A stretch of 64,000 bases of DNA from Pecten maximus (Eukaryota): contig NC_047017.1 in the NCBI RefSeq assembly GCF_902652985.1, forward strand, positions 26,722,001 to 26,786,000, given 5' to 3'. The notes under the pieces were generated by a model. It was not told the origin of the DNA, made no database searches, and worked only from the letters and a program-made list of their open reading frames with translations. Shown here piece by piece: positions 7,411-52,874 of this stretch. Positions within the stretch are counted from its first letter, which is position 1. Every line of letters starts with the position of its first letter. Position numbers and translations under genes: made by a program.

Positions 7411-8714
7411 TCAGAGGCGAAAGCCAGTAAACATTGATAGATAAGGTTGTATATCAGAGCCAGACCCGTGTCTATTCACAAGAACCCAAACTACATCTCC
7501 GACCTCCAAATGTACAGTTACTGTTGCAGAGCCAGCAATGGAGAAACCTGTATCCTGGCCAGTTTGGGCTGATCCGATGACAGCGTTGTTACGTACTAAA
7601 TCAGTAAAAATGAAATGATGGCCTTCTACAAATATCGACCAAGAAAAGACGTAAACTCCAGTCTGAGTACACGTAAAGATGCCGGTATCTGAGTTATAGT
7701 GGGCGCCTCCAGCGTTGGTGATGACGTGGTTATATTTTACAACGTGGTTGTTGGATGGATCGGATATTTGATGTGCAAGTATCGCATGGAACGCCACAAC
7801 GTCTTCTTTTGGACCTAGGGATGAATGCGTTAGTTTCAGTTTCAAATCGAATGTCCAACTTTATTATGTTACTCGCGTTTGGCGCTTAGCATAGAAATTC
7901 TCAAAGCCATCGGAACGACAAGAAAACGTAATAGCCTTTAACTTTTTCTTTAATATTTTGAATCTAATTTTCAAATTGAAAATTCGAACGATGAAAACAA
8001 CCTCAAACTTAAATGATATTCTATGTATGCTCAGATAAAGAAAATATTCGAAGATAGAAATTTGTAGATATCAATGTCTCGTTGAATATAAAGATAGACA
8101 AATTGGTGTTTAGAAATTGTCGATATGAAATAACACACTGTTCGTCATGCACTTACTGACACGAGTAATCCTGTGATGCCCAGACTGGATCCTTCTTTTC
8201 TCATCACTGCTTATAGAGCTCGCTTGGTGTGCCATGCTTTGGTTTGTCCTCTTCAGCTGTAGTTGATTCATTAGAGGTTGTTTCAGCGGGCGACCTCAGT
8301 GTTAGGTTACTTCCCTTGTTATACGGCTTGTCGCTGTAATGTGGAAATCTTATCTTTATCACACACACGCTCCAAATTCTTTATCCTTTGTATAAACATC
8401 GATGTCATGTCTGAATCTATGACGCATAAACGTTTAAGTTCCTTCACTTCCTTGTTCAGCTGGGTGATTTCACGCAAATCATTTTTGCGTGAATCCGAAA
8501 GTTCCTGTACACGTTTGGTCAGCTCGTTCACATCTGTGGAATGTAAAAGTTCTAACTTGTTCATTCGTTTGGTAAGCGTCGCCAACTGCTCAGTAAGAAT
8601 GATCGTTTGGTCAATGGGATCAGTCTGAACCATCTGGTCTGGAAACATTTGGAAAGCTGCTATTGCTCCCATCATAGCCAATACACATATTATATTGCTA
8701 TTCGCCATACCCAT
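7411..8714 (-). pseudogene. C1qDC copy A (exon 1 8714-8157, exon 2 7814-7411); exon 1 frameshifted, gC1q exon intact
   Basis: Signal peptide MGMANSNIICVLAMMGAIAA is followed by a coiled coil. The GTAAGT donor is at 8156-8151 and the acceptor CCCTAG ends at 7815. Exon 2 encodes a full gC1q domain (VAFHA...YNSDTGIFTC..GVYVFSW...LEVGDVVWV...SMFTGFRL). The exon-1 frame stops at 8319 and needs about two frameshifts to reach the donor (..RRIQSGHHRITRV). Confidence 0.8.
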
Positions 8715-9877: not shown

Positions 9878-11029
9878 TCACAAGCGAAAGCCAGTGAACA
9901 TGAATAGGTTTTCTAATACATCGGATCCACTGTGGTGGCTACGAACACGTACCCATACCCATACCTCCAGGTGTGTTGCGGCAGTTGCAGATCCGGCTGT
10001 GTAGCTGCTTGTGTCCTCGCCTGCTAAACTGAACCCTATAACGTCATTGTTGCGTACTAAATCCGTATAAATGTATTGATTGTTAAATACAAATATAGAC
10101 CAAGAGAAAACCTAAACTCCAAATATAGACCAAGAGCAAACATAAACTCCAGCCCTAGTAAAGGTTAAGACGCCAGTACGTGTGCTAAAGAGGGCGCCTC
10201 CAGTGTTGATAATGAAATTTTGTATTACACCGGGTGGTTTGTGTGTTGATGGATATCTTGTGTGTAAGGGTAGCATGGAGTACCATATTTACCTCAACCG
10301 AACCTGGGGAGACAAATATCGTTTGTAAAATATGCATACTGCTATATTACTATGATTATATTCATTGTTCGAAATCATTTAATACTGAAATTAGCATTTA
10401 CATGTACAAGGGATTTAAATTGTTACTGTTTTTATTCCTCATTCAAATACGTACTAACACGAGATGTCAGTCTGTTTGGCCTGGACAGGGATCCTATCCG
10501 ACCTCTCACTTAATTTGGATCTCAGTTTTCTACGAGGTGTCGACCTTTCATTCCCCGTCATCGTCGTTTCCCGAGGTTTGTCATGAGACGACAGTGGTAT
10601 CTCACTTGTATTATAATGCGGCGTCTCGTTATGTAGAATATGTATTTGCTTAGATACATCAATTTGTTCATATTCATCACAACGACGCTCGATTTCCTCG
10701 ATACGTTGAGTCAAAAAAAGAGGTCATGTGTACAGTTTTACTCGCAAACGTTGTAGTTCTTTTACTTGTTTATTCGACTGCGTCATCTCGCGCATATCAA
10801 TATCGCGTAAATCCGACAATTCTTGCACACATTTGGTAAGCTTGCCCACATCATTGGAATGAGAAAGTTCCAAGTCGCTTTTTCGTTTTTTCAACATCGC
10901 CAACTGCTCATCAGCAATGGTAGTTTGGGCAATGGAATCGGCCTGAACCGTTCTATCTAGAAACATAAGTACCGGCAATGTGTACAATCTTTGCATGAAT
11001 GTATTACTATTTTCTCTGTTTGTTGTCAT
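9878..11029 (-). pseudogene. C1qDC copy B (exon 1 ~11029-10455, exon 2 10303-9878), disrupted
   Basis: Coiled-coil exon with in-frame TGA at 10724-10726 and a frameshift before the GTACGT donor at 10454. The gC1q exon has a frameshift, an internal 30-bp duplication containing TAG and a deletion in the LxxGDxVW motif, and ends MFTGFRL*. Confidence 0.85.
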
Positions 11030-14454: not shown

Positions 14455-17407
14455 TCAGAGGCGAAAGCCAGTAAACATTGATAGATTAGGTAGTATATCA
14501 GAGCCAGCCCCGTGTCCATTCACACGAACCCAAACTACATCTCCGCCCTCCAAATGTACAGTTACTGTTGCAGAGCTAGCAATGGAGAAACCTGTATCCT
14601 GGCCAGTTTGGGCTGATCCTATGACAGCGTTGTTACGTACTAAATCAGTAAAAATGTAATGATGGCCTGCTTCAAATATCGACCAAGAGAAGACGTGAAC
14701 TCCCGGTTGGGTGCAAGTAAAGACGCCGGTGTAAGCATTGTAACTGGCGCCTCCGGTGTTGGTGATGACATGGTCATATATTACTGGATGGTTTGTGGAT
14801 GGGTCGGATATTGTGTGTGTCAGGATAACATGAAATGCCACAACGTCGTTTGACACACCTGGTAAGAAAAGACATATTGTTGCATATGAAACCGGATTAA
14901 GTAAAGCACCAGACAACTCATATTAAAGGGGAAATATTACAATCGCAAACAAGCAGAGCCATGTACAGATGAGAAGGGATTTCAAATAGTAATATTCTGA
15001 ACGATCAATGTTGCATAGGTTCCTGCAAACTTCACTTAATTTTTGCTTCCGTGAAAATATTTGATAATGTCTATTGTTCCTTTCGAGTTTTACGTTAATA
15101 CCAAATTTTTAAAGCAACTCGCAGTATAAGTAATAAAATTAAAAGACATTTTCTCGTGTTTAACAGGTACCCGCCTTAAGTGCGCCTCCTTACGCTAAAC
15201 ATTTTGTCACACAAATCTCTCTTGAAAACAGCTGATTTAGCGCAAGGGAAATGAATAAAATCCATTAGGAAAGAACAATTAATTGGTTAAAGTCATAAGG
15301 TATGATATATTCAGGTGACATTTATGTATGGCCAGTTTTCAGGGAAGCCATTGTCAAGTTGAAAACATGTCTTACAATGATTTGTTTTTACTGTAAATCA
15401 CTTATATTTCGCGTGGGATTTATTTTCGCGTTAATTCGCGAGGAGAGTCAAACGCGAATTCAAATCCCTCGCGAATATTTGTATAAGAATGACAAAAATA
15501 CTAAGTGGCGTCCATTTTGAATCTACCGTTATCTTTAGTGGGTGAGCAAACATCGCCGTTAAAGTCATGATAGAGTGATAGATTATATACTTATATCAGA
15601 GTGTGTTTTTATATCACAAAACACCAAAATTTCACACACAAAAACCCCACTGAACACTGATATTGTGGTTGAGCTCGGACTTAATTAACTTCTAGACGAC
15701 GTTTTACATGTAGTTAATTTAAGTACAATAGGTACGGTCCCGAGGATCCCGGATGGTCATCCGGAATATGTCCTACTTTATTACCCACGCTGTTGTAAGT
15801 TATGTAAGGTTTCATGTATATATAGCACTTCACATCGCTTGATTCTCGACAAGATATTTACCATAACAAAGTTGAAATCAAACAAATTATTTATTTAATT
15901 CAAACATTCAGAGCAAATAATCGCCTGGAGTATAAAATCATTCGCAATAGACTGTCCCGAGAGCTGTTCATCGGTATCACTGTATACACACGTACGTTAA
16001 TTACAATGTACGTTAACTCACAACCTATTGTAGTCCCGTCATCTTCCAGACATTCTTAATGAGCCGTGGGTTTTGTTCAATGTCTGACACCGCCTTTGTA
16101 AGCCATTAGCATGTATACAGGTACGGTAAATACAATTCAGTATGTCCAGACACCGATATCACATGATTGAATCACATGACTTTTCTTGTACCATCACATG
16201 ACTCTCATAAACAAAATGGCTACCAACATGGAAATATCGGCGACCTATTAATATCATTCGCCAATTTAAAGTCATTTTGAGATCAGAATTCGCGAAATTA
16301 TGTATTCGCGAATAAGTCAAATTAGGTGAGTTCGCGAAATATAAGTGATTTACAGTATTATCACAATCGGAATTAAGGAGACATTGACGGCTATTTTCGC
16401 AAGGTCATAAGTATCAAACCTTTCATACTTACCTGCCAATTTTCAATATATAAAAAACGCATTTCTGATGCGATCTTCAGAGTAAAATCAGGTTCATGCG
16501 AGTTTTATAACACGTATTATACATTGCAGTTATATCAATTAAAAAATAACATTTTGAAATTATTTTCGTTGTTTTTCTTTGCTTATAATGCATGGTGTTT
16601 ATTGATTTTAATGTCGATGAGTATTCCGTTTGTAAATATATCCAACAGTAATTTGAATAAACGGATGCATATATTGCAGTTAATTATCAAAATTAAAGCT
16701 GATTACTTGATGTATAAATCAGTTACCATGATCATAAACATTTTATTTATTTTTTCTATTGAAAAGCAAATAGAAATAATCCAATATACTTTTCTTGTGA
16801 TGTGTACATAAATTCAATGTTTGTGAAATCATGTAGTTTCAACCATTTTATCAATATTAGCATCACCTATTTACTTTCGGATAGTCTACGCGCACTCTAG
16901 GTATATGTACTTACCGGTGCGTGTAACTCTTCTGTAACGTCCATACTGGATCCTACTAGAACTGTCACGTGATTCAGGGCTCGATTGACTTACATATGCC
17001 GAACGAGCTTCATCTTTTCTCGTCGTTCCATCAGGTGTTGCACCACTGATGTTGTGATACAGTGCTTCGTCTTTAGCTGGAGTTATGTTGTTCGCAGCCT
17101 GCACATCGTCGTCCCTTTTACGCTCCAATTCCTCTATCCTCCGAGTCAGCATGGAAGTCCTCTCTAAATCGACGATGCGAAAACGTTGTAGTTCTTCTAC
17201 TTTCTGGTTCAGTCGAGAAATTTCGTTGGCATCATTTGAATGCATGTTTTCCAAATCATTCCTTTGTTTTGTGAGCATCGCCAACTGATCAGTAGGAGTG
17301 GTCGTTTGGTGAATGGAAACAGCGTTAACCATTGTGTCTGGAATCATGTACGCAGTAGTTGCAGCCAAAACGCACAACATTCGCATGACTGGTCTGATAA
17401 TTGACAT
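14455..17407 (-). CDS. Intact secreted C1q-domain-containing protein, copy C (exon 1 17407-16915, exon 2 14858-14455; 298 aa; signal peptide + coiled coil + gC1q)
   Basis: Exon 1 is 493 nt (phase 1, GTAAGT donor 16914-16909) and exon 2 is 404 nt (acceptor TTACCAG ending at 14859), giving 897 nt in frame. Signal peptide MSIIRPVMRMLCVLAATTA, heptad region LAMLTKQRNDLE...LTRRIEELER, canonical gC1q motifs, AATAAA at 14430-14425. Confidence 0.92.
15391..16355. mobile_element. Non-autonomous TA-targeting DNA transposon (MITE) in the intron of C1qDC copy C
   Basis: Perfect 23-bp terminal inverted repeats CTGTAAATCACTTATATTTCGCG (15391-15413) / CGCGAAATATAAGTGATTTACAG (16333-16355), flanked by TA on both sides, with repeated subterminal TTCGCG motifs and no transposase ORF. 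Confidence 0.88.
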
Positions 17408-27423: not shown

Positions 27424-28158
27424 AAATGTAATAAATATGTTTTCCTAAATGCATGTTTGATAACTCCAAATGATTATTAGATGTTTCAGTTATTTCCCTT
27501 TTACCGAGTCAAATATGAAATGAGAGAACACTACCTAAAGATTTGCTTGTCGGGTCATATTTTGACAATAACGATTACTTATATTCCAATAAAATCCACA
27601 GCCACTAACTAGCATTCCTGTATGCTGTCTCCTTGGTCGCATCACAAAGTTTGGGGGATTTGCACCTTTAATCAAAATAATAAAGTGGTAGGGAGACATC
27701 GGGAAGGAAAAAAAGTTAAGATGAATATTTTTTGTGTCTTGTGTGGTATCATTATTTTCACTCGTGGGAAAATCTGTGGTTTGTAGGAAATACCCTTTCA
27801 TATCCATTTGAGGTATACATGTCTTATTAGGCCAGAAACATCAAATTGCTTAGTCCGAATTAAACATTAAAGAGATATCAATGAATGGATAAAATCGGAA
27901 AAGAAAATACTAATTCTTACATCTATTTCTTTAACATTTATTATCAAGAATGTGTTACATTAGATCTTCCGTGTACAAATTAAATAAAAACATGTATAAA
28001 CTGAAAGTCACCGTCAATAACAGTATCATCTAACATGTATATCAAAATAATCAGAAGCATATACCAACAGAGAGTTGGTGAAAAATAGACATGAATGTTG
28101 TTTGCAATGGAAAGCCCGTGGAATGTAAACTTGCCCAACCTCAATGATTTTTAAAACC

Positions 28159-29784
28159 TTATTTGCAGTACCATCGGCACGGATGCTGTCTGGGATTTGC
28201 AAACGTTTTCCGTTCTCCAAAACGGCATGTTCCTTCGGCGTGATTGAACCGTCCTCTGTAGAAATGACTAGTTGGTCTGTCGTCAAACTCGCCTTTGATA
28301 TTGCAACTTTCGAATGCTACAAGTCCGTCGTTTGGAAGTGAAAGTTGTGTGTATGCGGACACAAGGTGTAAACGAGCACTCATGGAGAAAGACATGTCCA
28401 TTCCGAAAGCGCTCGTTCCACACACAGCACCGGATATGTGACGCTTGGCCGTTCGTATAAGGTCATTATATGATACACCGGTAGGGGAAATGTATGAAGT
28501 ATTCATCGTCACATACGCATGTGACGGGTGATTGCTATTTGGTTCACAATAATGTAGCTCTCTTAACACAATATATGTAATTTTAGTTCCAAAATTCTTT
28601 TTTGAGCAAAGAGTTTGTAGCTCATCCGAGACTTTACTGCCTCTCCAAGGTGCTTGTATTGAGTACCAAATACTTGTTCTATGGTCAAACTTACAGATAC
28701 GTCTATGGAATGCCGCGGCAACCACTAAATTACCCATAGAGTGGGTAAATAGCATAGTGTTTGAAATCGGCCGACTCGAATTGCCGATCGCAAATTCACA
28801 AAACCATTCATGCGTTTTTGTATCGTCCCAACCACGGTCAATACTATTATACCACATAAATCTGCGTGTAAGGCATTGGGGAGTGTAATGTTCAATGAAG
28901 CTCCCCCAATAGATCGGTAAAGCTCCCATGTCTTTATAGCTGTCTGTTGGCGGTCGCTCTCCTGCTCCGTGAATGAATAAACAATGTTTCCTTCGTTTTG
29001 TCTTCAGGAGTGTATTTTCTGATTTTGTGATATAATCGTCAGTTGAAACGATACCTTCTTGTAGATGTGGTATATTCGGGTCCATAAAATTGCATTGTTC
29101 TAACTTTTGAGGTAGTTTGATAACGTCAGACGAACGCGAGTTCCATTTCGTTACCATGGCGCGTGTTCCGCCGTGGTCAATATAAACCAATCGCGATCCT
29201 TGGATACACAATACTATATGTCCTTCTGTTGTATAAAATTCGCTTCCTGTACAGGTAGAATCGTTTGCTTGTCTTCCAGTAAATAATACGGCCTGTTTCT
29301 GGAGAATGATTTTAATAACCGTTAGCCATTCGACTGATTCTGTGTCGTTTCGACAAAACCATTCCTCATCCGTACCATAAATCAGACCATATACTGCCGA
29401 ATTGTTGGCGTATATAAACCTGCTAATCATCTTATCGTGTGAAGATGAATCGGAAATACTTGTATGAGTTTCTTGATATGTAATAGTTTTAGCATTCGAG
29501 TTCCATTCAAAATCGATCATTATATGTGTACCTTCTGTTCCATCCTGTAACTGTTTTGATAACTTCAACTGCGCTTGGAAGAAATGTGAAAATATGTGTT
29601 GCGCAGTTTGGCTTGTAGCAGAGAAAGTATCGGTAGCGGATGTGACGTACGCAATATGGACACGGATGAATATAAATACTAGCGCTGCGAGCAACACAAC
29701 AGCCAGAGCCACTTTACAGTATGGTCGTCGAGGGGGGCGTCTCGTGTGTGTCTTCAGAAGTCTTGTTCTTTCCTGGTCCGCCAT
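28159..29784 (-). CDS. Uncharacterised type II membrane alpha/beta-hydrolase (lipase/esterase-like), 541 aa, single coding exon
   Basis: Uninterrupted ORF with N-terminal TM (VALAVVLLAALVFIFI), CLFIHGAG oxyanion segment, THSMG nucleophile elbow, APWRGS, NDG Asp and FNH His. Splice-acceptor-like CCTTTCAG ends at 29823, just 5' of the ATG. Paralog of 39945-41603. Confidence 0.88.
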   Translation of the reverse strand: MADQERTRLLKTHTRRPPRRPYCKVALAVVLLAALVFIFIRVHIAYVTSATDTFSATSQTAQHIFSHFFQAQLKLSKQLQDGTEGTHIMIDFEWNSNAKTITYQETHTSISDSSSHDKMISRFIYANNSAVYGLIYGTDEEWFCRNDTESVEWLTVIKIILQKQAVLFTGRQANDSTCTGSEFYTTEGHIVLCIQGSRLVYIDHGGTRAMVTKWNSRSSDVIKLPQKLEQCNFMDPNIPHLQEGIVSTDDYITKSENTLLKTKRRKHCLFIHGAGERPPTDSYKDMGALPIYWGSFIEHYTPQCLTRRFMWYNSIDRGWDDTKTHEWFCEFAIGNSSRPISNTMLFTHSMGNLVVAAAFHRRICKFDHRTSIWYSIQAPWRGSKVSDELQTLCSKKNFGTKITYIVLRELHYCEPNSNHPSHAYVTMNTSYISPTGVSYNDLIRTAKRHISGAVCGTSAFGMDMSFSMSARLHLVSAYTQLSLPNDGLVAFESCNIKGEFDDRPTSHFYRGRFNHAEGTCRFGERKTFANPRQHPCRWYCK

Positions 29785-32700
29785 TTTGTCTTCTTTCCTA
29801 CCAGACGTATTTCCACTGTGTCCTGAAAGGATATCAGATTGTTAAGAAGTGTAAAGTGAACATATACAATTCAATGTGATATTTCGCTGAGTTCGCGTGT
29901 TATGTTCAAATTAAAAGTCCTAATTCAGATGCGAAAAGAATGTCCCGTCTTTAAGTTTATTGATCATATGCTGATATCATTCCAGAAAATATCTATAGTC
30001 AAAAGACAAATAAGGAAGGTATGCGCGTAGAAGATTAAAAAAGAAAAAGCCATTGAGCCTTGGTCACCTTTATTCTTAAATAATACTGATTGTTGGTGTT
30101 TTTGTTTTCAAATTCAGAATTCAACTAATTTGACCAGTGCAACCTTGAAGCAGATCAACGTCATTCAGATGAACAAACTTTTCAGTCTGTTATCAAAGCA
30201 TGTCATCCTCCCAGTATCATAACCATGGGCTTATTTATTGTTTACACCTGTTACCTTGAAAGTAGGGCAAGGTCATAAGTTTAGACTGTATTTTATATAT
30301 TATAAACAAACATTAAAGTCAATACATAAATAAACAACAAGGACTCGAAATAAATATTACTTATCTAAATGTGTCTCCTTATCATCGTGAATTTGCGTAA
30401 GGACAGCATTGTTACTTAATTTGGGATGGTATCGTAAAACATGGAGGTAAGAAAATCAGGAAAGGAGGGTAAAAATGGGAGGGGCACCGAGAATAAGAAG
30501 AAAAAACTTAAGAAGGCCAAAACAAACATGAATAACTCAATAAATGGGATGAAAATCTTATTAGAATGTATTTGGTGGCATACTTAGGCTAAATATCTCA
30601 CTATTACAAACATTCACAGGTTTATAAATACATTTAACAAAGTCCATAATGTATGCTTACTTGCTTTATCACATCAATTTGAAACAAAGTATACTGATAG
30701 AAGAGAGAGATTACATAAAGTTTGGAGCGGGTATACTAAGAACATCGGCTGTTTCCCTGACAAGACGAGGGTTTATAGGGCCAGGACCAACAACTATTTT
30801 GCAGTCAAAGGGGTGTATTACGTCAAAAACATCCTGTCGGGATACATAACAATGTCAGAACGAAGGTGATTATGAGTGTTGTGCTGATCGATCTTCCACC
30901 ATTCCTTCCAATTGGTGTTATCATGGTGTTAAACTTTACACAAAAGTTTATTAAAACAACCACGTTTAATTTTACGAAGGGTATCTGTACACGTTTTATG
31001 GGCTTTTCTGAATTTCAGCGTGGCTTCAGACTTCTGTGACTATTCAGCTTTTCGGGGTTAATACTTTCGTTTACGAATCAATTTTCTTATTACATTATTC
31101 ATTTACAAAGCATAATTCTCTCTGATATTTATATCTTCACTTGGTATACGCGCACTTGCAATATTAAGTCCACAGCGTGTAAATTGGTCTCCACTTTTGT
31201 CGGTGTCATTGGTGTCAAGAGTACTGCCCAGGTAAATATTAAAAAGTCTATCGAGATATTCATCTAGGTCATAAACCATATTTACCTTTAAAACAAGATC
31301 TTAGGGGTTTCGAAAATGTAGGACTGTCATACACAGGACAATGAAATCGTATAGACTGGTCAATGATAGTCTCACTCACAAGACACATATTTACTAAAGA
31401 CGAATCTTTTACGCATTTACGCAGACTATATCTAGGAACGAGGGGGACGATAAGGGGGGGGGGGGGGGAGGTGTCCATTTTACTCTTATATTCGTCAAAA
31501 ATATATTAAAAATTATTATTACAGAAAAAAAGCGAAGTGTTTTCAAATTAGTCAAATTATGAAGTGTGAATAATGTAAAAGAACTCAATAAAACTGGTAA
31601 ATTATCCATTTAGCTTTTAGAAAAAGGGTAGAAAAAGTTAATAGTTAAATATTATTTTGTTAAACTAATGGGATGCATAAGCTTACAATATCATGTTGAA
31701 CACTCTCCGACCATGTAACTGTTTTATTGTATATCTATGCATTACCATGTTGTTATTTTCACTTATGGACCGGTAGATCATTGGAATAAATTGAACTTGA
31801 ACTTATAGACCTGACAACGCTTTGGGTAGGATTAAAGGTATGGCAAAAAAGGCAGCCGCAATAGGTCACTTTAGACTTCACTTCGTCTAAGGTGATCTGA
31901 AAATATAGGTTCATTGCACGTACTTGTATATGTAATAATTATGTATTTGAAACGTATCAGCATGTGTTGACAAGATATTTGAAAAATACTGACGTGATGA
32001 ATCAAAAGATATTTAAAATCCATGTACAAATGTAGATAATATAATGTAAAAATGTCATTTATCGTCATGTTTGCATAAAATATAGAACAATACGTGAGTC
32101 TTACAAAATTTAAAATCGAAAACGATATAAAGAATTAATCTGAACCGTGGTTTAATATCACTTATTCATAAACTGTTCAATGTAATCAGGATGCTACTTT
32201 TAAATTTTAAAAATAGCATACTTGTCAGTAATTGTATACGTTCACGTGACATACAGTTCCGAATTAATAATGTACAGGGTATCAATGCATGACAATAAAT
32301 ACTAAACGTCCCAATGCATTTTTCATCGGTGACTGATAAGAGGTACATACAATGTACATACGTACCCACGTATTGTACATGTAAAATTATACGCTAAATT
32401 TATACGATACATTTTTAAATCCGTGTACATTTTCAATTGTCAGTGTTTATTTACTTTTTATATTGCACTTTCATGAGATTCAGACAAATAATTTTACAGT
32501 AGCGTATTAAATCATACCTAATCATGAATATGTAACGTGTCTATGATTGAAAATGATATTTAAAATATATCAATATCTGTATAGAGAGATTTATCCGTTT
32601 ATCAGCAAATAAATAAGTAATGATCAGCAAAATACCACAGTTTATCTCCTGTAACATACGCAAAAGCATACCTACACTTAAGTTTTCATTCTGGGTTATA

Positions 32701-34582
32701 CGTAGGAACGCGCCAAGCTCGAGCTCCTGTGTACACGTCCCGCAGTATTACATAAAAAACTGTATTGAGTGGTGTGCTGGGCAGGTAAGGTAAACAATTG
32801 AATAAGATAGAAAATGACGTGAAAGCACGAAAACAAGGAAGTTTTTGAACAAGGAAAAAACTCATTGAACAAGGAAAAAACTCAGTTGACAATGTCCTGT
32901 TCTTTGTAGAGTATAAGTGTCAGAACAAATAATCGTTCGTTACACGCAAAGAAAATGATTCTAAGAAATCATAACCATTCCTCAAAAATACGGTTGATGC
33001 GTATTATTTCTATGAATTGAAACTTTTTTTGTGTAAACTTATAAAAACCAATCAGAAGGGTAGAGTCTAAGCAATTAAATCATATAATACATAACGCATA
33101 TATATGCTTGCGAGAAAAATATGCTCACCAAATAATTGCATAAGAAAAAATTGTTTCTAAACAATAGTGATTGTAAAAAAATGTATCTATTACGTAATGG
33201 AAGTTTATGTTCTTATTGAATAATTAATTAACATGTTTGTTAAAATCTGTATATTGTATGTCCATTAAAGTCACCTAAGAAGTTGTACGTTCAAGATTGA
33301 TAATTTTTGCAGATGCCCCTAATACGCCGCCGTACCTAGGATAATGACATAAAATACAATTTTCAAAACAAAAGAGATTCGATAGGCCTAAAAAGGTTGT
33401 TACACAACCGGTATGGGGTCTATTTGACCAGACAAACAGAAAACAACCCTCACCTCACGGTAGTTCTAAAACACCTTCTCCGGTAAATATACCGGTGAAA
33501 AATTCAGCTTATATGACACAGTATATAAATGAATCCCTATTTCTTCCTCAAATAACACCTACCTCCTGCTGAGACAAGTGTTAGTGTATAGAGAACACCC
33601 CCTGTAGTCCTGTGTCCTTGCCGGTATTGGATAGTGCCTCTGGAAAATGCATCTTACTCGCCAAGAAGAGTATTGTCCAATTAATTAGAGGCCAGAGCGC
33701 ACATCTTGTATAAATTTGTAAACTACCTGCAAGATAAGAAATAGCCTTTATACATGAACATGTACAGTATAAATACTTATATGATAATTGTATGTACTAC
33801 ACATAAGTACACATACGGTATGTGTAGGGATTTATTCATATCGTCAAAGCAAAATATGCTTTCCTTGTTTTTGTGATTTGTTTTTTAAGTAAAAACAGTT
33901 TAAAAAATCACTGCAAAAATGTAGGTTATATGTTTTATGGCTGAAATAAACTGTTGAAAGTTATTGCCTTGTTCACAGGGACTTGGCTTGGTCCACATAT
34001 GTATACATGTACCACAAGCATTTGCATCTAGTCTGTATTTATAGAAAATGTACAAGCCACTACTACTACTATAAAGTATCTATAGAAACATAAATACTAG
34101 CGCCTACTCCTACTATATTATGGGTGGCGGCTAGTTTTGTTTTTGTTTTTTTTAAACACTAACCAAAAAGAGACGCCTGTGTTTGTACAAATGATACCGT
34201 ATTTAACAAAAAAATATATAATAGGTATTGTATAGGGATAATGAAATTGGCAATGTATGTCAAGTCTCTGTGAGCCGTCTGACAATACATGGTATACCCT
34301 AGAACAAACATTGTCTTGTAAGTTAAAAGTATGTAAAGCTATTCGTTTATAACCTAAGTTTTCTCCAAACAAGTCTGTCGTCAATGGTCAAACAACATGC
34401 CTTTTTGTTGGAGATTACCGAACTCCTGTCGTTGTCTGGGAACCACGTCTGGGAACCAACAAAGTTTAACACTGACGCGCCTCCACAGTAGATACCATTT
34501 TAACAATAGGGGCTAATTGTAGTCATTAGGGTATTATGTGGGGTTAAATTACTGCACGCCTCCAGAGTAAAACCACTATAAC

Positions 34583-34785: not shown

Positions 34786-37700
34786 CAGCTCCCCCCGGAT
34801 AGAAAGAAATAATAATGAAATATTACGATCACTGTTTTGTCTAAAATTATACACTAAATCACTAAATGTTAGAATTCATGTTAGAATTCAAAAATAACCG
34901 CTTGCACATTTTCCTGAAGAAACTACCTAAATTATTTAGAAAAATGAGTTTATGATACATATCATAATATCGATGTCGAACACAACAAGCTATGTATATA
35001 TATTGTATATATCAGCCAAGGCCGATCAGTTATTTTTAAATTTACTATATCAACCTATGATAGACCCCTATATTTCTTAAGATCTCTTCGTTGTCCGCCC
35101 AACGTTGAGATTTTGACTGCTAACCCTATTGTTATTGAGGCGCGGGGCGGGTGTGTGACGGTAGTCACTGATGGGGTGGGGACATACACACAAGGAGGAC
35201 GTATTCATTATGAACACACCTCGTTAGATTTACAACATGATTCCTGGTAATTATCCTATAACAAAATAATCGAATCACATTACAACAAAATCATTAAATA
35301 ACTTCAAAAACAAGTTACGGTGTACAATCTCTAACAGACAACACTACAGCATATGTGTGTACTATTATACACACGTCATGTCACTGCCGTACATGTGTAA
35401 TGCATGCACACGTAGAGTCAATGGTCTCTATATTAGATCCCACAACGTGTTGGAACAGAAATTAATAAAACATAAACACTTACCCCATATTCTCCATCTA
35501 GGAACCCGTGTCGGATGTTTGGGCTTTACTCTGTGTACAGTCGTGCATGGTTACGTCGACCGGTCTGACCTCAATATAGGACGAACACAAGTGAAATCGT
35601 ACGATTCGACCGATATATGATGTTGCAAACCTGAATAACCCGTCGTTTATCTTCAAGTACTCTTACTTGAACATTTTGGTTGTCAAAGGCGTAAATTAAT
35701 AGCGATGTGTAATTATCACATGACTTTTTTTGAGCGTGCCGTGTTTATCACACCTCGTGATTGTAACTAAGGCTAGGTAAAGCGAGAGTTACACATTTTA
35801 CACGCCACAAGCACTGACAACACTGTGACTGTGTAAAATAAGACAGGACCGACCTGGAAACAATAAAACACCTGGGGCGGGGAAATTACACTCGTAACCA
35901 ATGACGATTCACGAATTTAGCCATTTTCCCTTAGGCTGTTTACTGTCATATTGTCATAGTGTAGGATCAGACACAATTATGATTACGGTTTATTTTAGTT
36001 AGATATGTTTTACCTAAACTACATGTATGTTCTGACTTTGATTACAGTTGTAATATACATGTATAGTGAAGCACTAGATTACATTGTCCTACGATTTAAT
36101 TTTACTTCGATACAACACTGCATATGGTTATCATGTTTATCCAGGATTTATTTGAAAAAATTAGCGTGGCATACGAATTAACGTGGCAGGTTTTGGAAAT
36201 CATCGTTATAACTTTAAATCGTAGCTTTCGCGATATTTGAACGTATGAAAAATTCAAGTCCGTGTCAAAACTAATGACATATATTCTTTAATCTCCAATT
36301 TAACACATAAACAAATACGTCATCGGACTGATATTCAAAAATGCAAAAAATCTTAAGCATACCTATATTAAACTTATTATAAAAACGTTGACACTACAAA
36401 AGAAATTCTGGTACGTGTAGCGATTCCTATGACGAGACAACTAAGAAACATTCATTAAAAATCCAATGCATGGACACCGGTTCTATATTTCAATTCTTTA
36501 TCAAAATTTGGAAATACATAATCGTCCAGAAAAAAATACAATAAACATTATGATATGAAATATTCTAAGAAGCATATTAATATATATATATATATATATA
36601 TATATTAGGTTGAAATAAATTTTATTTTTCTATAATTTCTATATTTTTCGGATAATATAAATTACATAATTCAAATTCAAACAATTTGAATATATATGCC
36701 TTGTTATAAAAAAATATATGCAATACTAGCCAACACCAGAAATCCGTAATAAACGTGTTATATGTGTTATACACTGTTCAAACAGCTAGTCGATACAATT
36801 GCTTACTGGCGAACTTGACATTTCATTTAGCGAGAAGTATGTCCATGCGTTAACAAAATGACATATTTGTCATTTTATGTGTAAGGAGATGTTTATGTCG
36901 TTTGGCCTGTCATATTCTCATCTTTGAATTTTTGTTTAGTGTTAAGGAAGGACAACTCTAACGACATTGTCGACATACGATCTCTTACTGCATATCGCCA
37001 TGACGACGGGGCATTGTCGTAACATAACCGCGAGTGACATAGCGACACAAATGTTAACTCAATGTTCAGTTTAAAACGTGCGGGATAACATCACTTAAAG
37101 AGATTAGACACCGATACCATTTCCAATAAAGACGAAGAGCTTTTGTTCTACGGTTACAAGTGTAAAGAATACACATGTGTGTTTATTTCATTATGTCAGG
37201 TCACGAAATTCCTCATTCAAAACACTTGCATACATGTGAAGTAGATGTCACCCGTGTCCTGATACATAAATAGTTTTTAATCTGCACGTTTTTGTTTGCT
37301 GATTGACCAATCAGTATGTAAAATATACCCTACATCGCTCCACAGACAATAAGCGTAGTCATATAGGCAGTAAGACAGTGTCACTTCCTCATACCTTTCA
37401 TCTGACGTATATCTCCTGGTCGTATGTCGATTGAAAGGAGCAAGCACATATTTTTACAGGAATAGGAGACTTACAATTACAACCATTAGCCAGTTGTTCC
37501 AAAACTTAAAGCGTTATAAAGATGTTAACGCAACATTCAGAATTTAAAAAAAAAATGCTGAAAAATACAAACAAAAACAAAAAACAAATATGCTTGTGAA
37601 TTAATTCGTTTAAATATTTTTACACAATATTTAAAACATTAAATTAGTCACCCGTTTAACTAAATCATGATGCATATTTAGTGATGTTTTATGATTTTCT

Positions 37701-38021
37701 TCCTGGATGTTTCTTTGCTTTTCAAATCTATTTACGGTGATTAAAATAGCCCTGTTTAAGGAAGTTTTAAAATCAAGTGATCACGTTGGAGTTTCCGTAT
37801 ATATATTCTTCCTTGTTAATACAGAAACAAGACGTTTGATCAAAATTGTCATTTCAGAAAGTCCTGATGTGCCAGCAGAGAGAGTCCCTGCTCATCATAT
37901 GGGTTTAGGTAAGAAAACATTTATTGGAGTTGAAGTTGATATGTCACATCGTCGTAAGACTTCTATGGGTGGTACTAAGCATTTGCTGTACATACCCATA
38001 CTACAACTAACGACGATTTAA

Positions 38022-39850
38022 AGTCACAGTACATCACTACAGCTGTATATGTAGTCACAGTACATCACAATATCTGTGTGTGCGGTCACAGTACATCACT
38101 ACATCTGTATATATAGTCACAGTACATCACAATATCTGTGTGTGCGGTCACAGTACATCACTACATCTGTATATTTAGTCACAGTACATCACAATATCTG
38201 TGTGTGCGGTCACATTATATCACTACATCTGTATATATGTCGTCACAGTACATCACTACATCTGTATATATAGTCACAGTACATCACAACATTTGTATAT
38301 TTAGTCACAGTTCATCACTACATCTGTATATGAAGTCACAGTACATCACAACATCTGTATATTTAGTCACAGTACATCACAATATCTGTGTGTGCGGTCA
38401 CATTACATCACAACATCTGTATATGTCGTCACAGTACATCACAATATCTGTGTGTGCGGTCACATTACATCACAACATCTGTATATTTAGTCACAGTACA
38501 TCACAATATCTGTATATGTATTCACAGTACATCACTACATCTGTATATTTAGTCACAGTACATCACTACATCTGTGTGTGTGGTCACAGTACATCACTAC
38601 ATCTGTATTAGTCACATTACATCACTACATCTGTATATATAGTCACAGTACATCACTACATCTGTATATTTAGTCACAGCACATCACACTATCTGTATAT
38701 ATAGTCACAGCACATCACTACATCTGTATATGTAGTCACAGTACATCACTACAGCTGTATATTTAGTCACAGTACATCACAACATCTGTATATTTAGTCA
38801 CAGTTCATCACTACATCTGTATATAAAGTCACAGTACATCACAACATCTGTATATTTAGTCACAGTACATCACAATATCTGTATATGTATTCACAGTACA
38901 TCACTACATCTGTATATTTAGTCACAGTACATCACTACATCTGTGTGTGTGTGGTCACAGTACATCACTACATCTGTATTAGTCACAGTACATCCCTACA
39001 TCTGTATATTTAGTCACAGCACATCACACTATCTGTGTGTGCGGTCACATTATATCACAACATCTGTATATATAGTCACAGTACATCACTACATCTGTAT
39101 ATGTCGTCACAGTACATCACAATATCTGTGTGTGTGGTCACAGTACATCCCTACATCTGTATATATAGTCGGAGTACATCACAACATTTGTAAATGTAGT
39201 CACAGTACATCACAACAGCTGTATATGTATTCACAAAACATCATAACATCTGTGTGTGTGGTCACAGTACATCACTACATCTGTATATATAGTCACAGTA
39301 CATCACTACATCTGTATATGTATTCACAGTACATCACTACATCTGTGTGTGTGGTCACAGTACATCACTACATCTGTATATTTAGTCACAGCACATCACA
39401 CTATCTGTGTGTGCGGTCACATTACATCACTACATCTGTATATATAGTCACAGTACATCACTACATCTGTATATGTAGTCACAGTACATCACTACAGCTG
39501 TATATATAGTCACAGTACATCACTACATCTGTGTGTGTGGTCACAGTATATCACAACATTTGTATATTTAGTCACAGTTCATCACTACATCTGTATATAA
39601 AGTCACAGTACATCACAACATCTGTATATTTAGTCATAGTACATCACAATATCTGTATATGTATTCACAGTACATCACTACATCTGTATATGTCGTCACA
39701 AAACATCACAATATCTGTATATGTATTCACAGTACATCACTACATCCGTATATGTCGTCACAAAACATCACTACATAATTATGTATATTTAGTCACAGTA
39801 CATCACAACATCTGTGTGTGTGGTCACAGTACATCAAAACATCTGTATTT
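38022..39850. repeat. 31-bp minisatellite, ~59 copies (consensus AGTCACAGTACATCACTACATCTGTATATNT)
   Basis: A period of 31 is read directly (38022, 38053, ...). Variants are concentrated at a few positions. It generates the spurious repetitive ORFs in the track. Confidence 0.97.
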
Positions 39851-39944
39851 ATTTCATACACACGTTCAAAATGATTTTTACTTGCCTGATAATCTTCCTC
39901 TTATTCGTTTCTATTTCACCGTTTCAGAACTATCACACCTCGAT

Positions 39945-41603
39945 ATGGTGTACACATCAGAAACCGAAAGCCTTTTAGGGCCACAAAACACAAAATACAG
40001 ACACCGGAAGCGGAGCATCATCGTGATAACCTTGATTACGATTGTAGTGCTGATTGGAATTACTACTGGATTAGCTTACGGCTACATCTATTGGAAAAAG
40101 AACATAAAAAATGACAAGAAAGTTCATTTAAAACACGTTTTACCGAGTTCTTTTGGCGTTATGTTCAAAATTCAGACTGAAAATTCCTCTGATTCTGTGA
40201 ACGGAAATGTCAAAGAGATCAAGTGGGAAAATGAGCCAAAAACGATCAGATACCATCAGAAAACAGAGCAAATGATTTCCAACGAAAGTATCTTAACGGA
40301 CGTCATCATAATTAACAACAAAGCCGCAGTTTCGTATAAGCTTGGAAATCAGACTTGCTGGATGGACCCAGGGGATTTAAATGTCTTCAAATGGTTTTCA
40401 ATTTTACGACTTATCATGGATTCTATTCAGTCTCATTACACCGAAGAACGTTGTCCTGGACGTATGTGGACAGTACCATACGATGAGCAGAGCGTGTATA
40501 TCTGTATCACCCGCCAGCAAATAGCGTACATCAGGTATGACGACAAAGTCGCAAAATCGCAAGAGTGGCTGGTCCCATCAAGATCGTCCATCAAGATGCC
40601 CAAAGACACACCTAAATGTGAGTCGATGAACCTTGAAATGCCTTCACTACGCATGACTCAACAAACTTATGAACAAAACACTTCTGATTCCATCCGAAAG
40701 AAATCGGAGGATATACAAAACATAGGAATAGTTTATGAACCTCGGGGACAATCAGACGTATTTACAAGAAGCACAAGGCCAGACTGTTTGTTTGTGCACG
40801 GGGTAGGTGTGTCGACACCAAAGACAGGATTCAAAAGTGTCACTAGCCTTGATTACTGGGGTCACATTGAGAGAAACACCCCACAATGTTCATCACACAG
40901 GTTTATTCAGTTCAACACAGTCGACAATGGTTGGGACTCTACATTACTGCACCAGATGTTTTGTGAGTTTGCCACAGGCTCCAACTTGGGGGGAAGCATT
41001 TCCAACAAGATCATATTTTCACATTCCATGGGAAACAACATCATCGCGGCCGCGCTCCACCGCAAGGTTTGTACTTTCGATAAACAATCAAGTGAATGGT
41101 TCTCCGTGTCTGCGCCTTGGCGTGGAAGCAAGGTGGCAGACAAACTCCAAAACCTTTGTGCTGGTCACTTTGGTCCGAGCCACCACATATCCCATAATAT
41201 ATTGAGATTGATATTAGGACACACAAAGTTCTGCACAAAGGCCGGGAAAATGTCGCCAGCTTATAAAACACTGCAACCTGCATACAAGTCCACGACAGGC
41301 GTCTCCTTTGACGATCTGATATCTGTGGCTAGTCTCTATGTTAACGGGGCACTGTGTGGTACGTCTCCATGGGGTATGGGTCTAAACATCGCCTTCAGTG
41401 GGGCTTTGGATTTCGTCCAGGGTTTCTCACATCTTGAGACGCCTGATGACGGCGTCGTGGCACTAAGCAGCTGTGATGTCCTTGGCAGAAAATTCCAAAA
41501 ATCATGGAAGGACAAATTTTACATGGCATCTGTTAACCATCTTGAGAGTTCGACTTCATATGGCTGTCCTACGCCTCTCTGTTCATGGTATAAACACTTA
41601 TAG
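39945..41603 (+). CDS. Uncharacterised type II membrane alpha/beta-hydrolase (lipase/esterase-like), 552 aa, single coding exon
   Basis: The true start is probably MVYTSETESLL at 39945, after acceptor-like GTTTCAG at 39921-39927; the 690-aa track ORF is extended by the minisatellite. TM IIVITLITIVVLIGITTGLAYGYIYW, then CLFVHGVG, SHSMG, APWRGS, DDG and VNH. Confidence 0.88.
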   Translation: MVYTSETESLLGPQNTKYRHRKRSIIVITLITIVVLIGITTGLAYGYIYWKKNIKNDKKVHLKHVLPSSFGVMFKIQTENSSDSVNGNVKEIKWENEPKTIRYHQKTEQMISNESILTDVIIINNKAAVSYKLGNQTCWMDPGDLNVFKWFSILRLIMDSIQSHYTEERCPGRMWTVPYDEQSVYICITRQQIAYIRYDDKVAKSQEWLVPSRSSIKMPKDTPKCESMNLEMPSLRMTQQTYEQNTSDSIRKKSEDIQNIGIVYEPRGQSDVFTRSTRPDCLFVHGVGVSTPKTGFKSVTSLDYWGHIERNTPQCSSHRFIQFNTVDNGWDSTLLHQMFCEFATGSNLGGSISNKIIFSHSMGNNIIAAALHRKVCTFDKQSSEWFSVSAPWRGSKVADKLQNLCAGHFGPSHHISHNILRLILGHTKFCTKAGKMSPAYKTLQPAYKSTTGVSFDDLISVASLYVNGALCGTSPWGMGLNIAFSGALDFVQGFSHLETPDDGVVALSSCDVLGRKFQKSWKDKFYMASVNHLESSTSYGCPTPLCSWYKHL

Positions 41604-51107: not shown

Positions 51108-52874
51108 ATGGTTGCGGACAAAGAAAATTCAGAGGTTAGAAACAGTCATTTCAATAAGCCTAAGAACAACACACGTATATCAAGTAGTAAGAAAAGGAGA
51201 GCGAGAGACAGAAATCATGTTCTTAAGGTCATTACAATACCGGGATACCAACACAGAGATCACAGTGTGCTTACGGAGAAGTCGAAGTCTGAGACAGACG
51301 TAACTACTGTAGATGTTTCGTCCAATTCTGATGATAGAAGCAATGTGGTTGTAAACAATGATAGTGGAAGAACTATTGAAAACAAAGCAGAAAGGAAACA
51401 GTTGAAAATTCAAGTTGATTTGAGGTTAGAGCTTTGTCAGGAAACACACGTTTCGGTTGCAACTGACAACGAAACCGACACAAGTGAAAATGAACGAGAC
51501 CAATTGACAAGCGATAACAAAAGAGACACAGAGTCCTCCAACTCATGTAACAAGAAATCGATTATTCGAAAAGATTCATCGTTAGATGTGATAACGGAAG
51601 AGAAGGAAACAGGTAACAGTCAAAATGTCGTCAAGAAAGAATCTCTCCGACGGGAAATAACGTTTGACGAGCTAGTGTTAGATGATAGCGAAATACTTAG
51701 AACAAGTACTCCAACTGGAAATTCTTTTGCACAGTCTCGCATAAGACCAAAGACTTGTTCGTCAGTTTCCAAACGTAAAGAATCATTTCGATCCTTCGCT
51801 AGACCGAAATCTTCCCTCACTCCAAGGACTCCTAAACGATCTGACGACAGTCATTTCCGTAACTGTAACAGTCGTTCATCTCTATCGCGTTCTGACCGTC
51901 CATCAACAGCAAATACAAGTATGTCGAATTCTCCCCGAAGGAGTATTGAAACGAGGAGATCCTTCAAGATAACAAAGGAAGATCTAGAACATTCTCTTCC
52001 TAAGAAAAGTTTCTTTAACTGTCATGATAAAGTTCTAAAGGATGCCGGGTTTGAGGTGGAAGAGGTCTCACCAGCTGGTGCAAAAAAGCGACAATTTATG
52101 CAGCTTTTACAGCAAAGAAATAAAGATCGAATAGAAAGAGACAAAGCTAGAAAAATGCCTCCTCCCAAGGTGCTTGGATTGCTAGATCTGTATGAACTGG
52201 AATGTAGCACAGATGAAAATTCTACATCTGTAGTTAGTTTTGAGGATCAACAATCGAAAAACACGAGTAGCAAAAACAAGAAAAATTCTAAATCTACATC
52301 TAAGAAAAAGGGTGAGGACGAGGAAGATATTCGTGTGGATTATCAACTATTGTTGATATATCTTAAATACATAAAAGCGAACCCCGAGGAATTTCTTCAG
52401 TATCACGAAAGACAGGCGGCTTCAGTGAACCTGATACACGTTCGACATGGAGATTCGCTTGTGAAATTAGGGAGTATATTCCAGCGTGGCCGACACGGAA
52501 TATCCACAGAGAGCATCCTTGTGAAAGCTGTGCATGACATTCGGCCGCGGTTCACAGATCCGGGACAGTGGGCCTCTGCTAACAAGGAGAAAGAACTGTT
52601 AGCTCTTACCTCTACCAAAAAGGAAAACAGTATTCCTACAAAGCAGGAACCAACAAAGAAGGAAGCTACCAATAATCAAGAAGAGCCAAAAACAGAATAT
52701 GAGAGGATAAAATTAAAACTAGATGGATGGCTAAAAACAGTGACAACAGCACAACTGAATAAGGCAAAGGAGTTAGCTCTTAGAGAGCTAGGGCAAGAGG
52801 ATGTATCCCTTTCTAGATGGTGGATTTCGCTAAAGTCATGTAATTATATTAGGCAAAGAACTCATAAAACTTAA
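51108..52874 (+). CDS. Uncharacterised 588-aa S/K/R/E-rich, largely disordered protein, single coding exon
   Basis: Long uninterrupted ORF in AT-rich DNA with a low-complexity body, helical islands (YQLLLIYLKYIK, IKLKLDGWLK) and terminal WWISLKSCNYIR. Confidence 0.8.
   Translation: MVADKENSEVRNSHFNKPKNNTRISSSKKRRARDRNHVLKVITIPGYQHRDHSVLTEKSKSETDVTTVDVSSNSDDRSNVVVNNDSGRTIENKAERKQLKIQVDLRLELCQETHVSVATDNETDTSENERDQLTSDNKRDTESSNSCNKKSIIRKDSSLDVITEEKETGNSQNVVKKESLRREITFDELVLDDSEILRTSTPTGNSFAQSRIRPKTCSSVSKRKESFRSFARPKSSLTPRTPKRSDDSHFRNCNSRSSLSRSDRPSTANTSMSNSPRRSIETRRSFKITKEDLEHSLPKKSFFNCHDKVLKDAGFEVEEVSPAGAKKRQFMQLLQQRNKDRIERDKARKMPPPKVLGLLDLYELECSTDENSTSVVSFEDQQSKNTSSKNKKNSKSTSKKKGEDEEDIRVDYQLLLIYLKYIKANPEEFLQYHERQAASVNLIHVRHGDSLVKLGSIFQRGRHGISTESILVKAVHDIRPRFTDPGQWASANKEKELLALTSTKKENSIPTKQEPTKKEATNNQEEPKTEYERIKLKLDGWLKTVTTAQLNKAKELALRELGQEDVSLSRWWISLKSCNYIRQRTHKT

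What the first reader, a model, noticed from the sequence alone, without database searches (positions are those of the whole stretch)
29640..29784. Both hydrolases keep an ExxxLL dileucine motif before a type II anchor: predicted endo-lysosomal enzymes
Seen: the otherwise dissimilar cytosolic tails read MADQ-ERTRLL and (39945 gene) MVYTS-ETESLL. Each is followed by a basic patch and a ~16-25 aa hydrophobic helix. Established: [DE]xxxL[LI] is the AP-adaptor signal for endosomal/lysosomal sorting. Inference: these are lysosome/phagosome-targeted lipases or esterases, e.g. for intracellular digestion in digestive gland or haemocytes. If the family is foreign, a host sorting signal has been grafted on.
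Basis: partly seen in the sequence, partly recalled or inferred. Interest (0 to 1): 0.7.

Follow-up and report, generated by a model that had tools for sequence, protein, structure and literature searches.

The report
Lysosome-tagged ependymin-fold lipases of scallops
Two neighbouring scallop genes encode membrane-anchored proteins that join a predicted lipid-carrying (LolA/ependymin-fold) domain to a predicted lipase domain, and a short acidic dileucine tag kept across distant bivalves likely sends them to lysosome-like compartments, although neither location nor activity has been tested.

Summary
Observation confirmed. Both genes (29784-28159 minus; 39945-41603 plus) are spliced and found in RNA-type libraries. 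Each carries ExxxLL in a short N-tail before a hydrophobic helix. The motif is not chance: 12 of 16 long-tailed relatives in the bivalve-containing clade have it (0.33 expected from shuffles), including freshwater mussels, while the rest of the tail diverges. The two genes are 33%-identical paralogs, so they are not independent cases. New here is the architecture. A LolA/ependymin-fold domain (11 strands, a cysteine pair placed like the conserved EPDR disulfide) precedes an alpha/beta-hydrolase that is closest in fold to Pseudomonas-type lipases and lysosomal phospholipase A2, with an intact Ser-Asp-His triad. No Pfam family covers it, and my literature searches found no description. Named members are pectinid and unionid bivalves, oomycetes, amoebozoans and heteroloboseans; one homolog lies on a viral contig. 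Best reading: a type II endo-lysosomal lipid hydrolase with a built-in lipid-presenting domain, sorted by an AP adaptor (0.62). Foreign origin is unresolved (about 0.35). Short-tailed paralogs in the same genome lack the motif.

The parts
28159..29784 (-). Gene 1 CDS, one coding exon, 541 aa (P0001)
   Evidence: contig X13 record 2 covers 27954-29821 and both upstream exons
29755..29772 (-). Gene 1 acidic dileucine motif ERTRLL, residues 5-10
   Evidence: aligned LL column
29638..29709 (-). Gene 1 predicted signal anchor, residues 26-49 (core 26-40, then Arg41; three orthologs have Gly or Cys there)
29077..29607 (-). Gene 1 LolA/ependymin-fold domain, residues 60-236: 11 strands and a central helix; Cys144 ends strand 6 and Cys231 lies in the C-terminal loop
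28162..28995 (-). Gene 1 alpha/beta-hydrolase domain, residues 264-541; predicted triad Ser349 (THSMG), Asp486 (NDG), His515 (NH); HG oxyanion motif at 272-273
33563..33726 (-). Gene 1 second exon, non-coding
   Evidence: joints
35484..35618 (-). Gene 1 first exon, non-coding (5' end not determined)
37843..37908 (+). Gene 2 upstream exon (5' end not determined) with an in-frame ATG at 37899 that adds 9 residues
   Evidence: RefSeq model P0155
38022..39848 (.). 31-bp tandem array (58.9 copies) inside gene 2's intron; the 637-aa ORF from 39690 is read-through of intron sequence
39945..41603 (+). Gene 2 CDS from the conserved ATG, 552 aa (P0002); predicted triad Ser361, Asp502, His532; one contig runs on to 43790
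39960..39977 (+). Gene 2 acidic dileucine motif ETESLL, residues 6-11
40017..40088 (+). Gene 2 predicted signal anchor, about residues 25-48

Best explanation
These two paralogous scallop genes encode predicted type II membrane proteins whose conserved N-terminal acidic dileucine motif likely binds an AP adaptor and sorts them to lysosomes or lysosome-related organelles, where a predicted LolA/ependymin-fold domain would capture membrane lipid and hand it to a predicted Ser-Asp-His lipase domain. Shown here: genes, splicing, motif, its conservation and the triad residues. Predicted by modelling: both folds. Inferred: topology, sorting, a preference for AP-3, lipid hand-over and acyl-ester substrate. 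The motif was likely gained once, early in the bivalve-containing clade, and lost or altered in several branches.
For: Motif in 12 of 16 long-tailed clade members against 0.33 expected; 5 of 7 deep lineages, one row each, P about 1e-7 under shuffling, which ignores shared ancestry. In 13 of those 16 tails set in register (two near-duplicates and the one tail without a dileucine left out): Leu 12 and 12 at the pair, Glu 9 and Asp 2 at -4, Ser 7 at -1, Gln/Ser/Asn at least 9 at -5, while no residue exceeds 4 of 13 at +2 to +7. Glu at -4 with Ser at -1 favours AP-3 over AP-1 in OCA2 (PMC3418312, section 9); polar -5 and hydrophilic -3 matter in Vam3p (PMC2132875, section 16). All N-glycosylation sequons (5 and 4) lie after the anchor. 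Model pLDDT 88.0, pTM 0.84. Hydrolase domain: 1ex9 Z 17.6, rmsd 3.6 over 231; lysosomal PLA2 4x90 Z 14.7, rmsd 3.6 over 225; a sequence profile also returns only 1ex9, weakly (E 0.23). N-domain: VioE Z 10.3, LolA up to 9.8, sponge EPD 8.5, mouse EPDR 7.9. Cys144 and Cys231 are at least 90% conserved in 84 rows and sit at strand 6 and the C-terminal loop, like the EPDR beta6-L12 disulfide (PMC6363788 section 12). Human EPDR1 is lysosomal and binds BMP liposomes at acid pH (same paper, passages). Catalytic domains of this clade are cationic (median pI 8.69, n 24; others 6.27, n 135).
Against: No localisation, binding or activity data. The x positions can inactivate a consensus motif (PMC3418312 passages). 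Gene 1 has Arg at -1, and Lys there did not give wild-type AP-3 binding in OCA2. The motif ends 10 and 12 residues before the end of the basic patch, at or beyond the 6-11 residues from the membrane quoted for lysosomal signals. Gene 2 has a basic run on both sides of its helix, so charge does not fix its orientation. Four of 16 long tails lack the strict motif, and three intact paralogs in this genome have short tails without it, so the enzyme does not always need it. The cationic pI is shared by most short-tailed members. N-domain Z-scores are middling, and no row matches Pfam Ependymin (0 of 84 at E 0.01).
Confidence: 0.62

Rival explanations
1. The motif is real but serves AP-2 endocytosis or AP-1 polarised sorting of a cell-surface or recycling-endosome ecto-lipase, not delivery to lysosomes.
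For: The same consensus serves several adaptors; motifs further from the membrane tend to drive internalisation (PMC3418312 passage); two members place the motif 27-29 residues out; gene 1 has Arg at -1.
Against: Ser at -1 in 7 of 13 tails disfavours AP-1 in the OCA2 test; the EPDR-like domain and cationic catalytic domain fit acid compartments.
Confidence: 0.2
2. The sorting is as predicted, but the enzyme is a transacylase or thioesterase (like lysosomal PLA2 or PPT2), not a digestive lipase for food lipids.
For: LPLA2 Z 14.7 and PPT2 Z 11.5; LCAT is the commonest weak Pfam match (11 of 84 rows; both window proteins below the cut-off).
Against: The best fold matches are triacylglycerol lipases (Z 17.5-17.6). 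At 12-16% identity the fold cannot decide the substrate either way.
Confidence: 0.3
3. The helix is a cleaved signal peptide with a long n-region, the enzyme is secreted, and the dileucine is incidental.
For: Outside the clade 35 of 64 full-length rows have a short n-region like a signal peptide; gene 1's core is only 15 residues before Arg41; no signal-peptide predictor could be run.
Against: n-regions of 20-27 residues; orthologs have Gly or Cys at position 41 and longer hydrophobic runs; a discarded peptide would not explain a motif kept between scallops and freshwater mussels.
Confidence: 0.08
4. On origin: an early bivalve or mollusc took the gene from a protist, possibly through a giant virus, and then added an animal-style dileucine tail and 5' UTR introns.
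For: Every taxon-named animal hit is a pectinid or unionid bivalve; one coding exon in all 5 intact copies in this genome; a supported clade (SH-aLRT 97, 97, 99); the strict motif is nearly confined to that clade (1 of 22 outside); a homolog lies on a 165-kb viral contig.
Against: No supported sister group; the viral homolog falls far from the bivalve clade; amoebozoans have the family; only 150 of 475 hits were listed and only 8 of 30 clusters looked up carried a taxon name; cluster representatives can hide other animals; GC3 is ordinary (0.38, 0.48).
Confidence: 0.35

Closest known systems
Yeast vacuolar alkaline phosphatase (ALP/Pho8) and other AP-3 dileucine cargoes (PMC2132875, passages and section 16)
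   Same: Membrane-anchored hydrolase with a dileucine-type signal in a cytosolic tail; no Pro needed at -1. That ALP is type II with an N-terminal tail is recalled, not read in the paper.
   Different: Unrelated catalytic domain; sorting of ALP is demonstrated, here it is only predicted.
EPDR + cathepsin proteins, 26/29 kDa peptidases (PMC6363788 and PMC10380794, passages)
   Same: N-terminal LolA/EPDR domain fused to a C-terminal hydrolase; wide eukaryote spread with gaps.
   Different: The partner is a lipase-fold hydrolase, not a papain-type protease; a signal anchor with a sorting motif replaces the signal peptide in the bivalve long-tail members.
EPDR1/ependymin-related proteins (PMC6363788, PMC6608618, passages)
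   Same: 11-strand LolA-type sheet, cysteine pair in the conserved position, lumenal setting.
   Different: EPDR1 is a soluble single-domain dimer with no lipase activity detected (PMC6608618); identity 6-7% in the structural alignments; no Pfam Ependymin match.
Pseudomonas/Burkholderia-type bacterial lipases (1ex9, 8xy5)
   Same: Best fold match (Z 17.5-17.6); Ser-Asp-His order; helical region after the nucleophile.
   Different: 15% identity; [TSA]HSMG in place of GxSxG; eukaryotic, cysteine-rich, with an extra N-domain and anchor; no homolog found in prokaryote genomes.
Lysosomal phospholipase A2 / LCAT family (4x90; PF02450)
   Same: Same fold class (Z 14.7); lysosomal acyl hydrolase role as a functional model.
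   Different: Below the Pfam cut-off (14.7 and 19.7 bits against 21); 12% identity; LPLA2 is soluble and lacks an EPDR domain (recalled).

Membership tests
Acidic dileucine ([DE]xxxL[LI]) AP-adaptor cargo | Consensus match | tested here: met
   ERTRLL and ETESLL; consensus as given in PMC5297682 passages
Acidic dileucine ([DE]xxxL[LI]) AP-adaptor cargo | Conserved beyond chance in relatives | tested here: met
   12 of 16 against 0.33 expected; column profile
Acidic dileucine ([DE]xxxL[LI]) AP-adaptor cargo | Lies in a cytosolic tail of an uncleaved membrane protein | tested here: inconclusive
   Starts checked with RNA-type contigs; hydropathy, helix and sequon positions fit type II; cleavage not predicted or measured
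Acidic dileucine ([DE]xxxL[LI]) AP-adaptor cargo | Binds AP hemicomplexes; LL>AA mislocalises the protein | not testable with these tools
   needs experiment
alpha/beta-hydrolase, lipase-like | Fold | tested here: met
alpha/beta-hydrolase, lipase-like | Ser-Asp-His triad and HG oxyanion motif | tested here: met
   D486 invariant; S349, H515, H272, G273 at least 90% conserved in 84 rows; xHSx[GA] in 153 of 159 domains, NH in 151 of 159; geometry not measured
LCAT / lysosomal PLA2 (PF02450) | Pfam gathering score 21 | tested here: not met
   14.7 and 19.7 bits
Bacterial true lipases (Pseudomonas type) | Sequence-level family membership | tested here: not met
   no NCBIfam match for either protein; profile hit to 1ex9 only E 0.23; 15% identity
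LolA/EPDR fold superfamily | 11-strand curved sheet with central helix | tested here: met
   model of residues 60-236, pLDDT 89.0; the top 15 VIA rows are VioE, LolA, LolB, EPDR or a T. thermophilus uncharacterised protein, Z 7.5-10.3
Ependymin-related proteins (PF00811) | beta6-L12 disulfide | tested here: inconclusive
   Cys144 and Cys231 conserved and in the matching elements; bond distance not measured
Ependymin-related proteins (PF00811) | Pfam match | tested here: not met
   0 of 84 rows at E 0.01; Atlas features give ependymin clusters at 0.84-0.87, a lead only
Horizontally acquired animal gene | Real host gene, not contamination | tested here: met
   spliced leaders, 53-Mb contig, syntenic-looking neighbours in other scallops' annotations (adjacent LOC numbers), paralog cluster
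Horizontally acquired animal gene | Nests inside a donor lineage with support; absent from other animals | tested here: inconclusive
   no supported sister; most hits unnamed

The most novel reading that the evidence does not exclude
An undescribed eukaryotic lipase family carries its own ependymin-type lipid-presenting domain, the job that separate activator proteins do for animal lysosomal lipid hydrolases. Bivalves acquired it from protists and split it into a dileucine-tagged lysosomal form and a short-tailed form released by a furin-type cut, to digest algal lipids inside and outside cells.
Probability: 0.2. Interest if true: 0.72.

Novelty: new variant of a known kind. Interest (0 to 1): 0.45.

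Why it matters
The tag alone is textbook. The value is the family it marks. At least 475 sequence clusters, with no Pfam family, appear to fuse a LolA/ependymin-fold domain to a lipase; I tested the N-domain fold on gene 1 only. The natural role of ependymin-related proteins is open, and EPDR1 itself showed no lipase activity. A natural fusion makes the idea that the fold presents lipids to hydrolases directly testable by deleting one domain. The bivalve paralogs also give a natural pair, with and without the sorting motif, for a trafficking test, and a candidate for intracellular lipid digestion in filter feeders.

Tried and rejected
Chance motif: rejected. Different start for gene 1: rejected. 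The 637-aa ORF from 39690: intron read-through. A 625-aa gene 2 product from an ATG at 37707: unsupported, since laid contigs begin at 37843-37854, though contigs cannot show a 5' end. Conserved convertase site in the dileucine members: not supported; basic sites occur in 4 of the 14 linkers printed, whereas short-tailed members show Kx[KT]R-D. Bacterial source: 58 pattern matches in genome contigs, none a relative; the patterns came from a bivalve-biased alignment, so this is weak. Viral donor: one viral contig found, and it branches far from the bivalves. Sequence searches of PDB with the single protein and the full profile gave nothing useful. The bootstrap tree did not finish; supports quoted are SH-aLRT. 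The metagenome collection was not scanned. Tissue expression could not be read: runs are coded and contigs give no level. Gene 2 was not covered in run X12 and only at its 5' end in X5, which shows nothing about absence. Adaptor-tail co-folding was not run because no intact adaptor subunits were in hand. Literature: no paper on this family in searches (five gene ids, 0 papers; listings and abstract starts only); the two held supplements of PMC6363788 contain no 'lipase' or 'hydrolase'. Subscription papers and other supplements were not seen; PMC1170590 was not held.

Full report
What is there. The window is AT-rich animal DNA. Gene 2's product is identical to a RefSeq protein named Pecten maximus LOC117323747, so this is a scallop. 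Two divergently oriented genes about 10 kb apart encode 541-aa and 552-aa proteins that are 33% identical. Each has one coding exon. Contigs of public runs splice gene 1's exon at 29822 to upstream exons 33563-33726 and 35484-35618 with GT..AG ends; two of these runs are on record as RNA and one is guessed. The leader has five upstream ATGs with short frames and an in-frame stop 43 codons before the start, so Met1 is the first usable in-frame start. Gene 2 is spliced from 37908 to 39928 across a 31-bp tandem array.

Is the motif real? Yes as a conserved feature. Tail shuffles give p 0.008 and 0.004 for the two window proteins. Trees of the family place both genes in one clade holding all named bivalve proteins and a few unnamed ones (SH-aLRT 97, 97 and 99). 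In that clade 16 of 23 non-redundant full-length rows have a tail of 12 or more residues before a strong hydrophobic stretch. Twelve of the 16 carry [DE]xxxL[LI], against 0.33 expected. They include scallops (Argopecten, Ylistrum, Mizuhopecten) and freshwater mussels (Potamilus, Sinanodonta). Three of the four misses are near variants (ETMGIL, MDASLL, PTTALL); one has no dileucine. Set in register, the acidic residue and the leucine pair are conserved and the residues after them are not. These rows are related, so the shuffle figures show constraint, not independent origins. The strict motif needs at least 5 changes on the tree, which fits one gain and several losses but does not prove it. Outside the clade the strict motif is in 1 of 22 long tails, while YxxPhi is in 8 of 22 (2.87 expected, P 0.001 without regard to kinship). 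So some protist members also look membrane-anchored and may use tyrosine signals.

Which adaptor? [D/E]xxxL[L/I] is the AP-recognised consensus (PMC5297682, passages). In OCA2, Glu at -4 is needed for AP-3, and Ser at -1 is tolerated by AP-3 but not AP-1 (PMC3418312, section 9). In Vam3p a polar -5 and hydrophilic -3 residue also count, and the vacuolar hydrolase ALP lacks the -1 Pro (PMC2132875, section 16). The bivalve profile (Glu 9 of 13, Ser 7 of 13 at -1) fits AP-3. Against this, gene 1 has Arg at -1, Lys there was a poor AP-3 binder in OCA2, consensus motifs can be inactive, and the spacing from the membrane is at or beyond the usual 6-11 residues. Sorting therefore stays a prediction.

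What the enzyme is. No Pfam or NCBIfam family reaches its cut-off. The AlphaFold model is confident (pLDDT 88.0, pTM 0.84). Residues 264-541 match Pseudomonas-type lipases best (1ex9 Z 17.6, rmsd 3.6 over 231), then BlEst2 (16.4) and lysosomal phospholipase A2 (14.7). Ser349, Asp486 and His515 are conserved family-wide. Residues 60-236, folded alone (pLDDT 89.0), form 11 strands with a central helix and match VioE, LolA/LolB and ependymin-related proteins at Z 7.5-10.3. The Atlas feature search also points to ependymin clusters, at lead level only. Cys144 ends strand 6 and Cys231 lies in the C-terminal loop; both are at least 90% conserved. That is where the most conserved EPDR disulfide lies (PMC6363788, section 12), though I could not measure the bond. 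Human EPDR1 is lysosomal and binds BMP or GM1 liposomes at acid pH (passages), and showed no lipase activity itself (PMC6608618, passages). The known EPDR-hydrolase fusion is with cathepsin L. I found no paper on an EPDR-lipase fusion in searches, nor the words lipase or hydrolase in the two held supplements of PMC6363788.

Mechanism. Inferred steps: the helix anchors the protein with the N-tail in the cytosol; the sequons (all after the anchor) and cysteines face the lumen; the dileucine recruits an adaptor, likely AP-3; in the acid compartment the EPDR-like cup and the cationic catalytic domain (pI 9.2 and 8.3) engage anionic membranes, and the Ser-Asp-His site cleaves acyl esters. The substrate is not known; transacylase or thioesterase chemistry is a real alternative. 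The genome holds five intact copies and two broken ones. The three other intact copies have tails of 4-9 residues, no motif, and a Kx[K]R-D site just before the catalytic domain, which would release a soluble lipase if cut. Their starts were not checked with RNA here; each has an acceptor-like site upstream, and in two the frame stays open to it. An Argopecten RefSeq model and a Logan protein in the same subclade also have short tails.

Origin. The profile-free search found 475 clusters and listed 150. Named members are pectinid and unionid bivalves, Willaertia and Percolomonas, Luapelamoeba and Rhizamoeba, Aphanomyces and Thraustotheca; the nearest Atlas clusters are mostly oomycete. One homolog is on a 165-kb viral contig and branches far from bivalves. 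None was found in prokaryote genomes with two bivalve-derived patterns. The narrow animal range and single coding exon fit transfer, but there is no supported donor, only 8 of 30 clusters looked up had a taxon name, and amoebozoan members allow old descent with loss. An earlier scan note (e1-9824072, unchecked) describes native intronless tandem families in bivalves, which weakens the intron argument. I put transfer at about 0.35.

Verdict. A dileucine-tagged membrane hydrolase is a known kind of thing. The ependymin-fold plus lipase architecture and its split into tagged and untagged paralogs appear undescribed. New variant of a known kind; interest 0.45.

Noticed in passing
G000:C3:26179900-26194717, 26672227-26673660, 26718464-26718801 and C8:23621116-23622525 (L002-L009): Five more family copies: three intact with short tails, no dileucine and a Kx[K]R-D site before the catalytic domain; one split over two frames (L005/L007); one degraded about 3 kb before the window (L008/L009).
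   Followed up: partly
window 35618-29785 (minus), gene 1 leader: The 337-nt spliced leader holds five upstream ATGs with frames of 2-23 codons, which could damp translation.
   Followed up: no
window 38022-39848: 31-bp minisatellite, 58.9 copies, fills most of gene 2's intron and creates spurious long ORFs.
   Followed up: yes
window 8319-8714, 10724-11029, 16886-17407 (minus); L011:8631-9110: Three related signal-peptide plus coiled-coil ORFs; a C1q domain (E 4.5e-22) lies just before the window, so these may be first exons of a C1q-domain gene cluster (inference).
   Followed up: partly
L010:2632-3768: A family member on a 165-kb viral contig, beside an adenylate/guanylate cyclase-domain ORF and a collagen-repeat ORF; 74% identical to P0096.
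   Followed up: partly
P0140, P0147, P0058, P0150 and others: Long-tailed members outside the bivalve clade, including an Aphanomyces protein, carry YxxPhi motifs more often than shuffles predict (8 of 22 against 2.87).
   Followed up: partly
window 29754: One contig (X13) reads a variant that changes Lys11 to Glu right after the dileucine, the residue seen in the Argopecten ortholog.
   Followed up: no
window 51108-52874 (+): 588-aa single-ORF, low-complexity basic protein with no Pfam family above cut-off.
   Followed up: no
window 818-1309 (+): Reverse-transcriptase fragment (RVT_1, E 6.5e-10), probably a decayed retroelement.
   Followed up: no
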